Shown: positions 44,744 through 47,078 of the stretch, one piece after another
Layout of the letters: the number at the start of each line of letters is the position of its first letter
Position numbering within the stretch: the first letter of the stretch is position 1
NCBI GenBank assembly: GCA_016703335.1
Contig: JADJCG010000020.1
Location: forward strand, 14,981 to 78,980
Origin: Caulobacteraceae bacterium
GTDB lineage: Bacteria > Pseudomonadota > Alphaproteobacteria > Caulobacterales > Aquidulcibacteraceae
Direction of reading: 5' to 3'
DNA length: 64,000 nucleotides
Made by a program: the position numbers and the translations under genes
Notes under the pieces: generated by a model
Seen by the model: only the letters and a program-made list of their open reading frames with translations
Database searches by the model: none
Told to the model about the DNA's origin: nothing

Positions 44744-44873
44744 CGCTGGCGAAGTCTTGGTGTGACCAATGGGTTCCTGCTACGGGCCGCGCCTGGTTGG
44801 GGAGCGCTGCAGCATTGCCAAGGCGTAATGCCCCGACTAGGTTCGCGCCACAGGGGCGGGACGGGACAATTTC

Positions 44874-46148
44874 ATGGCAATCGCGGCGTATCTCGCCTTC
44901 GAACCGGACGACGCAGGCGCCGCACGACCCATAGCTGCCGAACTCGAACAACATGGTTGGACGGTGCAGGCTTCTGGCCCTGAGTATCGTGTCCAGGACA
45001 AGCTGGGAACTTTGGTTCAGGCGGTCGGCCAGGCGGGTATCGTCATCGTGCTCGCATCGCCGGCCTCACAGGCAAGCGCGTGGATTCGCCGCGAAGTCGC
45101 CGCGGCTCTGAACAATGGCCGCACGATCGTGGTGGTGCAGACAGCCGATCTCGCGGCCGAGTCCTGGTTCAATCAGACGCTCGATCCTTCGACATTCATC
45201 GACTTGAGGCGCGGGGCGCGGTCCGAGACACTCGCCAAGATCATCGAACGAACGCGCACGGCGAGTGGGCGCGGGCGCGTTATCGCCATGCTCAACATCA
45301 AGGGCGGTGTCGGCAAAACGGTGCTAGCGGCCAACCTGTTTGCGGCGGCTCACCTCGCCGACAAGCGCGCGATCAGCTTCATCGACCTCGATCCGCAGCA
45401 TAACCTCACGCAGTATTTTCTCTCACCGGGTGAACGCAATCGCATCCGCGACCGCAACCACACGCTCTATGGCATCCTCAACGCCCGTGGCGATCATTCG
45501 ATACCTGCCAGCGACTTTGGCGCCATTTCGATCCCGCTCAATCGCGTCAAGCGCGGCAACAAGGCGCCGAACTTCGAACTTGTCGCTGGCGACGAGCGTT
45601 TGTTCGAATTCACGCTCGACACGCGCCCCGATCGAGACAAAGCCGAAGCGTTCACCCGCTTTCGCGCACTCGTGGCCGCGCTTCGCGCCCGCTCCGACGC
45701 GGTGATTATCGACTCGAACCCTTGCGCGACCTTTCTCACCCGTTTGGCGATCACAACAGCGGACCACATCGTCGCCCCGGTGCGCCCGGAGCGCTATTCG
45801 CTCACCGGGTTGAACATGCTTGAGCATGTCGTGCGTGAGGTCAGGGGAAGGCCGTTGCAGCCCAACGAATTCTCGGTGCTCCTGAACGGTGTGAACGACC
45901 GCACGCGCTCCGGGGAAACTGGCGACGCCGACACGCTGACCCGTGCGGAGATCCAGAACGCGCCCTTCTTCGGCGGCGCGCTGCTTCCAGACGAGGTGCC
46001 CTATTCGGCCGTTCTGCGTTCAGCGCCGACTGAGCGCTTCGCCGCCAACCCGATCAATGTCACGGCAATGATGCGCGTGGGCGGACGCCCCGCCAAAGAA
46101 TCACTCGCCCGCGCCGCGGCGGCCATTCTCCGGCGGGCCGCGCCGTGA
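44874..46148 (+). CDS. TIR-like domain fused to ParA/Soj-family ATPase
   Basis: aa ~1-125 TIR-like (LASPASQASAWIRRE, FIDL); KGGVGKT deviant Walker A, IDLDPQ, IIDSNP. Confidence 0.8.
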   Translation: MAIAAYLAFEPDDAGAARPIAAELEQHGWTVQASGPEYRVQDKLGTLVQAVGQAGIVIVLASPASQASAWIRREVAAALNNGRTIVVVQTADLAAESWFNQTLDPSTFIDLRRGARSETLAKIIERTRTASGRGRVIAMLNIKGGVGKTVLAANLFAAAHLADKRAISFIDLDPQHNLTQYFLSPGERNRIRDRNHTLYGILNARGDHSIPASDFGAISIPLNRVKRGNKAPNFELVAGDERLFEFTLDTRPDRDKAEAFTRFRALVAALRARSDAVIIDSNPCATFLTRLAITTADHIVAPVRPERYSLTGLNMLEHVVREVRGRPLQPNEFSVLLNGVNDRTRSGETGDADTLTRAEIQNAPFFGGALLPDEVPYSAVLRSAPTERFAANPINVTAMMRVGGRPAKESLARAAAAILRRAAP

Positions 46149-46555
46149 CATTGAAGCCCGCCGACGCCAAGCTCCTTCGCACCGCTCTGGGACGCCGCTC
46201 GCGCGTCGAGGTGCGCAAGATCTTCAAGCTCGCTCGAGACCATACGGATAAAACCCTGCTCGCTGCCGCGCTGCCCACCCCGAAGAAGGCTGCGAAGCCG
46301 AAAGGCGATCCGCTGGTGCGCGAACTCGAGCAAACCCTGAGGCCGATCATGGGCCCGTCACATGAGAAGGCCGATCTGCTGATCGAACACATCGCCAAGA
46401 CGTACAAACGCAAGCTGGCGTACCAGCCGAAGGGGCTGGCCGACGCTACCCGCCAACTCCGCACCAAGTTCAGCGACGATCAGATCAGCGCCGGGGCCAA
46501 AAGCTTGGTCTCGCATCTGAGCAAGCTCTACGGCGGAAGCGACGGCGTCGTGTAA
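46145..46555 (+). CDS. Small basic hypothetical protein, coupled to TIR-ParA
   Basis: 136 aa Lys/Arg-rich; GTGA overlap with the upstream stop. Confidence 0.75.
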   Translation: MTLKPADAKLLRTALGRRSRVEVRKIFKLARDHTDKTLLAAALPTPKKAAKPKGDPLVRELEQTLRPIMGPSHEKADLLIEHIAKTYKRKLAYQPKGLADATRQLRTKFSDDQISAGAKSLVSHLSKLYGGSDGVV

Positions 46556-46605: not shown

Positions 46606-47078
46606 ATGACAATTTCAGCCTCCGGCTTCGATCTCACCCACCAAGCGCCACCAAGCGCGCGCGCTTAGAGGCCAGTCTCACGGATGAGGAGCGCCGCGTG
46701 CTTTTGCACCACGGCACTGAAGCGGCGTTTTGCGGCGGCCTGCTCAATCAGAAGAAATCCGGTGTGTATTGCTGCCGGCTCTGCGGGCTGCCGCTGTTTC
46801 GCCAGGATACAAAATTCGAAAGCGGCACGGGCTGGCCCAGCTTCACCGGCCCTATCGACCCGCAGCACGTCCTTGGGACTGAAGACAATTCCTACGGCAT
46901 GCGGCGCATCGAGACGCGTTGCGCGCGGTGCGACAGCCATCAGGGCCACGTTTTTCCGGACGGCCCGCGTGCGGCCGGTGGCCTGCGCTACTGCATCAAT
47001 TCGGTGTCGCTACAATTCGTGGCTGACGGCGAGGCCCTGCCAGATCCACTCGGACGCGCAGAGCGCATCGCCGCTTAG
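46606..47078 (+). CDS. msrB: Methionine sulfoxide reductase B (frameshift ~46640)
   Basis: GTE..F, two CxxC, SGTGWPSF, GHVF.DGP, RYCINS. Confidence 0.92.

What the first reader, a model, noticed from the sequence alone, without database searches (positions are those of the whole stretch)
44874..46555. TIR-ParA ATPase fusion with a coupled basic partner: candidate undescribed two-gene defence or signalling system
Seen: a 424-aa ORF whose first ~125 aa follow the TIR pattern (YLAFEPDD...A..L...G, IVIVLASPASQASAWIRRE with Glu74 at the position of the catalytic NADase glutamate, FIDL). It is followed by a ParA/Soj ATPase with its motifs intact (K143-GGVGK-T149, IDLDPQ, IIDSNP). A 136-aa basic ORF overlaps its stop codon (GTGA). 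The pair sits between unrelated genes (MgtC/DUF4010 and msrB), with no parB, replication gene or integrase nearby. Known: bacterial TIRs are oligomerisation-activated NAD+-cleaving or signal-making enzymes in Thoeris, CBASS, Pycsar and SPARTA, and ParA forms ATP-dependent dimers that bind DNA. Inference: ATP- or DNA-driven ParA assembly could switch on the TIR domain, with the small protein acting as ATPase stimulator, antitoxin or sensor. I know no characterised system with this architecture. Caveat: the TIR beta-A (normally FISY) and beta-B (normally WxD) motifs are divergent, so it may be catalytically inactive.
Basis: partly seen in the sequence, partly recalled or inferred. Interest (0 to 1): 0.82.

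Follow-up and report, generated by a model that had tools for sequence, protein, structure and literature searches.

The report
Resident TIR-ParA ATPase with small partner
A real two-gene module (a TIR domain fused to a ParA-type ATPase, plus a small basic helical partner) sits in this Terricaulis-like genome, but it is inherited vertically at a fixed housekeeping site and its TIR catalytic motifs are eroding, so it looks less like a mobile NAD-destroying defence gene than like a long-resident ParA switch derived from one.

Summary
Window 44874-46148 encodes a 424-aa TIR_2 + ParA/Soj fusion. Window 46145-46555 encodes a 136-aa basic helical protein that overlaps it by GTGA.

The pair is a conserved module, and the partner also accompanies distant fused relatives. 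A controlled complex prediction docks the partner on the ParA half (0.65; best control 0.00).

The architecture is not wholly undescribed. A 2026 preprint (Li, Burroughs, Aravind) gives one line to a TIR fused directly to ParA, in its predicted-immune "ParA-HeH" branch.

- **Vertical inheritance.** It is single-copy and syntenic (aroG-[mgtC]-X-Y-msrB) across at least seven genera of Terricaulis relatives. The gene tree follows the genera, and selection is purifying.
- **Eroded TIR.** It lacks the canonical strand-A and BB-loop motifs kept by about 60 related clusters. The W...E catalytic motif is lost repeatedly in sister genera, although W70 and E74 persist in the window's own genus.

Hyphomonas and Henriciella carry a different, partner-less, TIR-degenerate subfamily at the same aroG site.

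Best reading (0.5): a resident ParA-adaptor ATP switch whose conserved function does not need NAD+ cleavage. An active NADase defence system remains possible here (0.3). I class it as a new variant of a known kind, of moderate interest.

The parts
44874..46148 (+). Gene for the 424-aa TIR-ParA fusion protein (P0001)
   Evidence: ORF listing. Pfam TIR_2, AAA_31 and CbiA are all above their gathering scores. AlphaFold2 model with pLDDT 87.8 and pTM 0.88. Orthologues at 49-99% identity.
44874..45248 (+). TIR-fold domain (aa 1-125). It retains W70 and E74 but lacks the canonical strand-A F[IL]S[YH] and BB-loop W.D motifs.
   Evidence: TIR_2 match to residues 7-121 at 40.5 bits. SARM1 TIR profile match, E = 1.4e-7. 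Secondary structure E4-8, H11-26, E30-33, H41-53, E56-61, H69-80, E84-89. Motif comparison with about 60 canonical clusters. Identity to orthologues is 23-77%, against 57-94% for the ParA half.
45273..46145 (+). ParA/Soj-type deviant Walker A ATPase domain (aa 134-424), with K143, K148, T149, D171, D173 and D280 invariant
   Evidence: AAA_31 at 84 bits. Foldseek hit to Soj 1wcv, E = 4.5e-12, TM 0.78 on the target. Invariant columns in alignment A2 and in 121 close homologues.
46032..46073 (+). Codons for aa 387-400 (the NPINVTAMMR loop), the main predicted docking surface for the partner. Residues 184-187 and 225-227, in the insert after strand beta-2, also contribute.
   Evidence: Predicted interface. 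N392, P393, T397, A398 and R401 are at least 90% conserved. The motif is specific to this clade and its nearest relatives.
46145..46555 (+). Gene for the 136-aa basic all-helical partner (P0002). Its GTG start overlaps the upstream TGA stop (GTGA).
   Evidence: ORF and junction. 234 homologues, none in any Pfam family. Found directly downstream of the fusion gene in 13 of 15 syntenic orthologue loci and beside most canonical relatives. AlphaFold2 gives 7 helices at pLDDT 80.6.
46340..46378 (+). Codons for partner aa 66-78 (RPIMGPSHEKADL). This is its most conserved segment and, together with aa 125-132, the predicted contact with the ParA half.
   Evidence: E74, K75, A76 and L79 are nearly invariant in alignment A1. 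Interface residues.
44744..44873 (.). 130-bp divergent intergenic region between mgtC/DUF4010 (minus strand) and the fusion gene; presumed promoter region
   Evidence: Gene coordinates. The scan found no sigma-70 consensus. A weak 16-nt inverted repeat lies at 44820-44835 / 44884-44899. The promoter function is inferred only.

Best explanation
The two genes form a long-resident, vertically inherited chromosomal member of the family 'TIR fused to ParA, plus a small helical partner'. That family belongs to, or sits beside, the ParA-HeH branch of predicted conflict systems.

**Proposed mechanism**
- The C-terminal half is an intact deviant Walker A ParA/Soj ATPase. Like other ParA proteins, it should form ATP-dependent sandwich dimers (inferred from family knowledge).
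- The partner docks through its conserved core (aa 66-78 and 125-132) on the ParA C-terminal lobe (aa 387-400) and on the insert after strand beta-2 (aa 184-187 and 225-227). This is predicted, not shown.
- That leaves the partner's very basic N-terminal three-helix module and Lys/Arg-rich linker (pI 11.1) free to bind DNA or a cargo (inferred).
- The TIR domain is still a folded domain under selection, packed against the ATPase. In this clade it has lost the canonical strand-A and BB-loop motifs, and the W...E catalytic motif has been lost repeatedly in sister genera.

What the module is conserved for is therefore the ATP-controlled ParA-partner switch, with the TIR serving as an assembly or interaction domain, and not NAD+ destruction.

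Whether this switch still intercepts foreign DNA or has been taken over for a lineage-specific cellular task is open. I lean slightly (about 55:45) towards a non-essential cellular role. In the window's own genus W70 and E74 persist, so some residual TIR chemistry cannot be excluded.
For: **Module and binding**
- The partner lies downstream of the fusion gene, usually with a 4-base overlap, in 13 of 15 syntenic loci and beside distant relatives.
- Complex prediction: score 0.65, best of 3 controls 0.00. This mark was reached by 58 of 80 solved complexes and 2 of 110 mismatched pairs; the counts hold only roughly because my own alignments were used. The three runs agree in at least 75% of contacts, and the partner's pLDDT is 81.
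- The contact residues are the most conserved segments of both proteins.
- Part of the interface falls in the insert after beta-2, which the preprint proposes as the PHeH contact site.

**Vertical and resident**
- The gene is single-copy. It is present in 11 of 12 sampled genomes of the window's genus and in six further genera of the family.
- The order aroG-(mgtC)-X-Y-msrB is kept down to about 50% identity, and the fusion protein's identity tracks that of gshB and mgtC.
- The clade is monophyletic (support 100), and all five genera with two or more members group together in the gene tree.
- The neighbours are housekeeping genes.

**Selection**
- For the least saturated pair, dN/dS is 0.18 for the TIR half and 0.06 for the ParA half.

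**TIR erosion**
- About 60 related clusters keep F[IL]S[YH], W.D and S.W...E. This clade has YLAFEP-type strand A and no W.D motif.
- E74 becomes T, A or D in 6 of 15 orthologues, and W70 is lost in 9 of 15.
- The two successive sister groups are canonical, so the loss is derived.

**Parallel case**
- Hyphomonas and Henriciella carry a partner-less fused gene (34 of 40 sampled genomes), mostly with Glu replaced by Gln or Asp.
Against: - In the window's near clade, E74 is invariant (121 of 121), R73 is invariant and W70 is nearly so (117 of 121), while much of the TIR half varies. That fits a still-used active site.
- The strand-A and BB-loop motifs are not proven essential for every bacterial TIR enzyme.
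- No cargo, DNA site or phenotype is known.
- The module is dispensable: G013, of the same genus, has a clean empty site.
- In other lineages the same aroG-adjacent site holds other ParA-plus-small-ORF modules, or a different fused subfamily. That resembles a variable hotspot, as seen for defence genes.
- The complex prediction is a model's own confidence, not a measurement.
- dS is saturated for most pairs, so the dN/dS values are rough.
Confidence: 0.5

Rival explanations
1. This is an active abortive-infection or defence system. Invader DNA, or a signal sensed through the partner, drives ATP-dependent ParA dimerisation or oligomerisation. That brings the TIR domains together, and they cleave NAD+ or make a signal, using E74.
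For: - The wider fused family keeps canonical NADase motifs and the same partner gene, and it is classed as predicted immune in the 2026 preprint.
- W70, R73 and E74 are invariant or nearly so in 121 close homologues.
- The module is non-essential (empty site in G013).
- The aroG-adjacent site carries different ParA modules in other lineages.
- This genome also holds a decayed canonical paralogue, which shows turnover in the family.
Against: - The clade lacks the strand-A and BB-loop motifs.
- Glu and Trp are lost in many orthologues that otherwise conserve the ParA half and the partner.
- Inheritance is vertical and syntenic, with strong purifying selection and no defence-island or mobile context.
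- PADLOC gives only sub-threshold ThsB-like matches (E = 9e-4, 17 bits) and nothing for the partner.
Confidence: 0.3
2. This is a classical partition (ParABS-type) system for the chromosome or a plasmid, with the small protein acting as the centromere-binding ParB/ParG equivalent.
For: - The ParA fold and motifs are intact.
- A small basic protein is encoded immediately downstream, as in type Ib partition loci.
- NCBIfam gives partial matches to ParA_partition and RepA, far below their cut-offs.
Against: - The genome has other, unfused ParA-class genes (four further matches).
- The partner has no ParB, RHH or HTH family match.
- The locus is chromosomal, sits among housekeeping genes, has no replication gene nearby, and is dispensable.
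- NCBIfam scores are 68 against a cut-off of 180.
- The nearest relatives carry TIR effector motifs.
Confidence: 0.05
3. The N-terminal domain is not a TIR but an atypical receiver-like domain, as in CpaE/TadZ pilus-assembly ATPases. The pair would then localise a secretion or pilus machine.
For: - Flavodoxin-like N-terminal fold joined to a ParA/MinD ATPase.
- Weak NCBIfam match to a CpaE homologue, 23.5 bits.
Against: - TIR_2 scores above its gathering score.
- The profile matches the SARM1 TIR, the TIR of a metazoan TIR-STING fusion and the plant Roq1 TIR.
- Relatives at 25-38% identity carry textbook TIR motifs.
- The CpaE cut-off is 154 bits.
- No pilus or secretion genes lie nearby.
Confidence: 0.03

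Closest known systems
TIR fused directly to ParA, a sporadic lineage in the ParA-HeH branch of 'ConB1' (Li, Burroughs, Aravind, bioRxiv 10.64898/2026.10.19.760177, section 'Sporadic ParA lineages')
   Same: - An N-terminal TIR fused to a ParA-clade ATPase.
- Relatives of the window's protein keep a NAD+-targeting type of active site.
- A small protein encoded downstream resembles the two-gene ParA-HeH core.
   Different: - The preprint gives one line: predicted immune, no experiment, and no mention of a partner for the fused form, of Caulobacterales, or of vertical inheritance.
- The window's clade is syntenic, vertically inherited and slowly evolving, and it has an eroded TIR.
- I could not confirm from the text that their sequences include this clade.
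ParA-HeH two-gene systems (same preprint)
   Same: - ParA plus a small, otherwise unclassified helical protein encoded immediately downstream.
- The partner is predicted to touch the ParA insert after strand beta-2.
- The partner's N-terminal pattern (L..L...G+..S..EL..F) is HeH/SAP-like by eye.
   Different: - An HeH fold in the partner is not demonstrated here (no Pfam hit; the fold searches did not resolve the N-terminal part).
- ParA-HeH partners are described as rapidly evolving, whereas this partner's core is strongly conserved.
Thoeris ThsB and other bacterial TIR NADase effectors (including the SARM1 TIR)
   Same: TIR fold, ThsB_TIR Pfam match over residues 50-91, and a W...E motif in helix C.
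   Different: - No ThsA or other signal-receiving effector nearby.
- PADLOC ThsB matches are marginal.
- The strand-A and BB-loop motifs are missing.
- The domain is fused to an ATPase.
ParA-class cargo-positioning pairs with a small adaptor encoded downstream (McdA/McdB; ParF/ParG)
   Same: A deviant Walker A ATPase followed by a small, basic, fast-diverging helical adaptor with no family assignment. McdA structures are among the Foldseek matches.
   Different: - No carboxysome or other cargo genes nearby.
- The N-terminal TIR is unique to this family.
- The relationship is by analogy only. I recalled the McdAB/ParFG organisation from general knowledge and did not test it here.
TIR-ParA 'apoptosis' systems of ConB2 (FxsC/FxsT type, same preprint)
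   Same: They combine TIR and ParA, and include TIR copies predicted to be catalytically inactive and proposed to act in multimerisation.
   Different: In those systems the active TIR is a separate upstream gene and the inactive TIR is C-terminal to ParA, often with STAND or sensor domains. Here a single TIR is N-terminal and no second TIR gene is present.

Membership tests
TIR domain (Pfam TIR_2, PF13676) | Profile match above the curated gathering score | tested here: met
   40.5 bits for the whole protein and 43.7 bits for aa 1-135, against a cut-off of 28. The family profile matches the SARM1 TIR at E = 1.4e-7.
TIR domain (Pfam TIR_2, PF13676) | Flavodoxin-like alternating beta-alpha fold | tested here: met
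   The AlphaFold2 secondary structure runs E4-8, H11-26, E30-33, H41-53, E56-61, H69-80, E84-89, H117-130 at pLDDT of about 84-94. The domain was not fold-searched alone.
Catalytically active TIR NADase | Catalytic Glu in helix C (S.W...E motif) | tested here: inconclusive
   W70 and E74 are present in the window, and E74 is in 121 of 121 close homologues. But E is T, A or D in 6 of 15 syntenic orthologues, and W is lost in 9 of 15.
Catalytically active TIR NADase | Canonical strand-A F[IL]S[YH] and BB-loop W.D motifs, as kept by the fused family at large | tested here: not met
   The window has YLAFEP and GWTVQASG, whereas about 60 related clusters keep the motifs.
Catalytically active TIR NADase | NAD+ cleavage or signal synthesis | not testable with these tools
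   Needs a biochemical assay.
ParA/Soj deviant Walker A ATPases | KGGxGK[ST] with the signature Lys, the Walker A' and Walker B aspartates, and a Soj-like fold | tested here: met
   K143, K148, T149, D171, D173 and D280 are invariant. AAA_31 scores 84 bits. Foldseek hits 1wcv at E = 4.5e-12.
Classical ParABS partition system | A cognate ParB (HTH/CTPase) or RHH centromere-binding protein, plus parS | tested here: not met
   The partner has no ParB, RHH or HTH match. NCBIfam ParA_partition scores 68 bits against a cut-off of 180.
ParA-HeH system (Li et al. 2026) | Two-gene core: ParA plus a small protein encoded immediately downstream | tested here: met
   GTGA overlap. The pair is conserved in 13 of 15 orthologous loci and beside distant relatives.
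ParA-HeH system (Li et al. 2026) | The partner contains a helix-extended-helix (PHeH) domain | tested here: inconclusive
   No Pfam hit. The VIA and Foldseek rows cover only aa 51-136. The N-terminal helices 5-15, 20-32 and 35-42 look HeH/SAP-like by eye only.
ParA-HeH system (Li et al. 2026) | Rapidly evolving partner and ParA insert (arms-race signature) | tested here: not met
   The partner's core motif is nearly invariant. ParA-half dN/dS is 0.04-0.10 within the genus.
Thoeris | ThsB TIR together with a ThsA (SIR2/SLOG or equivalent) effector in one locus | tested here: not met
   The neighbours are housekeeping genes. The best PADLOC ThsB match is E = 9e-4 at 17 bits.
Mobile defence island gene | Patchy, horizontally transferred distribution next to other defence or mobility genes | tested here: not met
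   The locus is syntenic and single-copy, the tree is congruent with genera, and the flanks are housekeeping genes. One caveat: the aroG-adjacent site varies between families.

The most novel reading that the evidence does not exclude
An immune-type TIR-ParA/partner module was captured beside aroG in an ancestor of the Terricaulis group. A different subfamily was captured, independently or by in-situ replacement, at the same site in Hyphomonas/Henriciella. Both have since been exapted into a lineage-specific, non-essential cellular positioning or regulatory system of these stalked and budding Caulobacterales. In this reading the TIR domain has stopped being an NADase and serves as an ATP-gated oligomerisation scaffold. 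That would be a documented case of a TIR immune effector domesticated for cell biology in bacteria.
Probability: 0.28. Interest if true: 0.75.

Novelty: new variant of a known kind. Interest (0 to 1): 0.48.

Why it matters
No fused TIR-ParA protein has been studied experimentally. The only mention I found is one line in a computational preprint.

This locus offers a natural comparison series:
- canonical-motif relatives with a partner;
- a vertically fixed clade where the ParA-partner core is frozen while the TIR catalytic motif decays lineage by lineage;
- a partner-less, further decayed version in Hyphomonas/Henriciella, at the same chromosomal site.

The series makes two questions directly testable. 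One is whether ParA dimerisation gates TIR activity. The other is what a TIR domain does once its chemistry is lost.

Cultured organisms are available. Terricaulis silvestris has an orthologue at 81% identity, and named Hyphomonas and Henriciella species carry the aroG-adjacent solo form.

If the finding is simply a slowly evolving resident defence gene, it is still a caution. An architecture that looks like defence, here TIR plus an NTPase, does not by itself imply an active suicide effector.

Tried and rejected
**Partner identity.** Nothing informative was found.
- Pfam, PADLOC and NCBIfam gave no match.
- Scanning all 46 aligned members against Pfam gave only scattered hits at E of 0.01 or worse.
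- The PDB profile search matched only designed helical repeats.
- Foldseek against the PDB gave a best E of 0.78.
- The VIA-align wide search gave a best Z of 5.4, covering only aa 51-136, which is noise level for helical proteins.
- The ESM Atlas gave no usable hit.

The HeH assignment therefore remains an inference.

**Regulatory signals.** There were no sigma-70-like promoters, and the terminator-like hits were at the level expected from shuffles. Only short, weak repeats lie in the flanking intergenic regions.

**Phylogeny.** The default IQ-TREE mixture search did not finish in time, so I used FastTree and a quick LG+G4 tree on 45 rows for the AU test. Deep branches between subfamilies are weakly supported, and the root is not inferred. 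The unfused ParA 'outgroups' nested inside the fused family.

**dN/dS.** dS is at or above about 1 for most pairs, so only the L030-L031 pair is reasonably unsaturated.

**Expression.** Contigs from RNA libraries (X15, X17) at 95-100% identity cover parts of both ORFs, and one spans the junction (46069-46295). These are contigs from metatranscriptome libraries that can carry DNA, so this is only a weak hint. Uncovered stretches mean nothing.

**G005 modules.** The small ORFs there do not match the partner profile, and the ParA genes hit unfused ParA clusters best. They are not members of this family.

**Cluster look-ups** gave no organism names for the nearest canonical relatives.

**CpaE/TadZ-like and classical partition readings** were considered and rejected (see the rival explanations).
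Full report
**1.

The window has a 424-aa ORF at 44874-46148 (+) and a 136-aa ORF at 46145-46555 (+). They are joined by a GTGA start/stop overlap.

Pfam places residues 7-121 in TIR_2 (40.5 bits, gathering score 28) and residues 50-91 in ThsB_TIR. It places residues 135-326 in AAA_31 (84 bits), with CbiA and MipZ also above their cut-offs. A profile of the family matches Soj (E = 7.8e-21) and the SARM1 TIR (E = 1.4e-7) among solved structures.

The AlphaFold2 model is confident (pLDDT 87.8, pTM 0.88). It shows an alternating beta-alpha N-terminal domain packed against a Soj-like domain. The best Foldseek matches are Soj/ParA structures, with 1wcv at E = 4.5e-12.

The small protein is basic (pI 10.25; its first 55 residues have pI 11.1). 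It is predicted to be all-helical, with seven helices at pLDDT 80.6. It belongs to no Pfam, PADLOC or NCBIfam family.

The flanking genes are ordinary housekeeping genes.

**2. The pair is a conserved module, and the partner is predicted to bind the ATPase half**

Both proteins have hundreds of homologues. In 13 of 15 orthologous loci fetched from other genomes, the small ORF follows the fusion gene directly, usually with the same 4-base overlap. Relatives of only 25-35% identity also have a homologous small ORF downstream.

A controlled complex prediction scored 0.65, against 0.00 for the best of three controls. This mark was reached by 58 of 80 solved complexes and 2 of 110 mismatched pairs; the counts hold only roughly here because my own alignments were used. 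The three runs agreed in at least 75% of contacts, and the partner's pLDDT was 81. This supports binding but does not show it.

The contact joins the partner's most conserved segment (aa 66-78, with E74, K75, A76 and L79 nearly invariant, plus aa 125-132) to three parts of the ParA half. These are the conserved NPINVTAMMR loop (aa 387-400) and residues 184-187 and 225-227. The TIR domain is not involved.

The last two patches lie in the insert after strand beta-2. The 2026 preprint proposes that insert as the contact site for PHeH partners.

**3. It is not an undescribed architecture, but it is uncharacterised**

A full-text search found one relevant paper: Li, Burroughs and Aravind, bioRxiv 10.64898/2026.10.19.760177. 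It surveys ParA-clade ATPases recruited into predicted immune systems.

[quoted passage not shown] That branch is defined by ParA plus a small, rapidly evolving helix-extended-helix protein.

The paper reports no experiment on such a fusion. It does not mention Caulobacterales, vertical inheritance or TIR decay in this lineage.

An exhaustive search of 1.84 billion representatives found roughly 60 clusters (at 50% identity) of full-length fused proteins, at 25-38% identity to the window's protein. So the family is broad.

**4. This lineage behaves like a resident chromosomal gene, not a mobile defence gene**

The genome is a Terricaulis-like member of Caulobacterales. Its named relatives are Terricaulis, Hyphomonadaceae and Caulobacterales MAGs, and it occurs in activated sludge and wastewater.

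The full-length orthologue is single-copy. It is present in 11 of 12 sampled genomes of the same genus and in six further genera of the family, at 49-91% identity. It was not found in the other sampled genera with this query.

The gene order class II DAHP synthase (aroG) - (mgtC) - fusion - partner - msrB is kept across these genera. The fusion protein's identity falls in step with its neighbours gshB and mgtC.

The clade is monophyletic with support 100. Each of the five genera represented by two or more genomes groups together in the gene tree.

Selection is purifying on both halves. For the least saturated pair, dN/dS is 0.18 for the TIR half and 0.06 for the ParA half. dS is saturated for most other pairs.

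The module is nevertheless dispensable. One genome of the same genus (G013) has aroG-mgtC-220 bp-msrB with nothing in between.

**5. The TIR domain is eroding**

Almost all of the roughly 60 related clusters keep three signatures: strand-A F[IL]S[YH], the BB-loop W.D and the helix-C S.W...E.

The window's clade has YLAFEP-type strand A and no W.D motif. Its two successive sister groups are canonical, so the loss is derived.

Within the clade the TIR half is 23-77% identical to the window's, against 57-94% for the ParA half. E74 is replaced by T, A or D in 6 of 15 orthologues, and W70 is lost in 9 of 15. These losses fall on several separate branches.

Against this, E74 (121 of 121), R73 and W70 (117 of 121) are conserved in the window's near clade. 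An active site in this genus cannot be excluded.

**6. A second, independent case at the same chromosomal site**

In a sister family, identified by source names as Hyphomonas and Henriciella, 34 of 40 sampled genomes carry one fused gene of about 435 aa. In all 11 loci examined it lies divergent from the same aroG gene (aroG 73-76% identical).

It has no small partner ORF downstream. Its TIR is also degenerate: strand A reads YIAH, the helix-C Trp is lost, and the Glu is mostly Gln or Asp.

It is only 25-33% identical to the window's protein. An AU test rejects uniting the two aroG-adjacent clades (log-likelihood difference 173.6, p-AU = 1.5e-61, LG+G4 quick tree).

So either the site has been colonised or overwritten by different subfamilies, or the deep topology is misleading.

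A further genome of the window's family (G005) has two unrelated unfused ParA-plus-small-ORF modules next to aroG.

Canonical-motif pairs occur elsewhere in the family. Three lie next to dxs, one beside a transposase remnant and one beside a PIF1-like helicase. This genome holds a frameshifted remnant of such a copy on another contig.

**7. Interpretation**

*Shown*
- The fusion, the intact ParA motifs and the conserved gene pair.
- Synteny, vertical inheritance and purifying selection.
- The pattern of TIR motif loss.

*Predicted*
- The ParA-partner interface.

*Inferred*
- ATP-dependent dimerisation of the ParA half, from family knowledge.
- DNA or cargo binding by the partner's basic N-terminal module.
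- A scaffold or interaction role for the TIR domain.

The best account (confidence 0.5) is that the module descends from the predicted-immune TIR-ParA/partner family and became fixed in the chromosome. It is conserved for its ParA-partner ATP switch, not for NAD+ destruction. Whether that switch still intercepts foreign DNA or now serves a cellular task is open.

Classical partition (0.05) and a CpaE/TadZ-like reading (0.03) are disfavoured.

**8. Verdict**

This is a real and interesting two-gene module. It is a new variant of a recently noted but untested kind. Interest is moderate at 0.48. The module is a good experimental entry point into how ParA gates TIR, and into what becomes of a TIR effector after domestication.

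Noticed in passing
L002 (G000 contig C34, locus coordinates about 1289-2370): A second, degraded TIR-ParA copy of the canonical type lies in the same genome. Recognisable pieces (the W..E helix, a KGGVGK P-loop, LIDLDPQHNLTQ, VVIDCNP) sit in different reading frames with an internal stop, between a GMP-synthase-like gene and a gene that looks by eye like a FAD-dependent monooxygenase. I named both neighbours by eye.
   Followed up: partly
L035:3576-5302, L036:6634-8293, L037:6507-8173: Canonical-motif TIR-ParA-plus-partner pairs lie directly next to dxs (DXP synthase) in three different genera of the family, and they belong to three different branches of the tree. This may be a second recurrent insertion site. 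G013, which lacks the aroG-adjacent pair, has one of these.
   Followed up: partly
L038-L047 and L049 (Hyphomonas/Henriciella-type genomes): A partner-less fused TIR-ParA gene with a degenerate TIR lies divergent from aroG in 11 of 11 loci, and is present in 34 of 40 sampled genomes of that family. It is a different subfamily from the window's, but it sits at the same chromosomal site.
   Followed up: yes
L053:1700-4567 (G005): Two tandem unfused ParA genes (299 and 344 aa), each followed by a small unclassified ORF, lie immediately upstream of aroG. They are not related to the window's partner family.
   Followed up: partly
window 46638-46672: A perfect tandem decamer (CCACCAAGCG, two copies) is followed by an adjacent 13-nt inverted repeat. 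It lies in the 142-bp gap between the partner gene and msrB. It could be a terminator, an operator or a chance feature.
   Followed up: no
L019:8714-11584 (G059): About 2.9 kb of extra DNA lies between the partner gene and msrB in one genome of the same genus. Its content was not examined.
   Followed up: no
P0446: A protein from a eukaryote-labelled set (eukprot) is 85% identical to the Hyphomonas-type fused protein. This is most likely bacterial contamination of that data set.
   Followed up: no
L027:7071-8414 and L029:6943-8250: Orthologues in one genus carry C-terminal extensions of 12-25 residues, rich in Ala and Pro, beyond the conserved end of the ParA half. In L026 no partner ORF was detected downstream of the fusion gene.
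   Followed up: no
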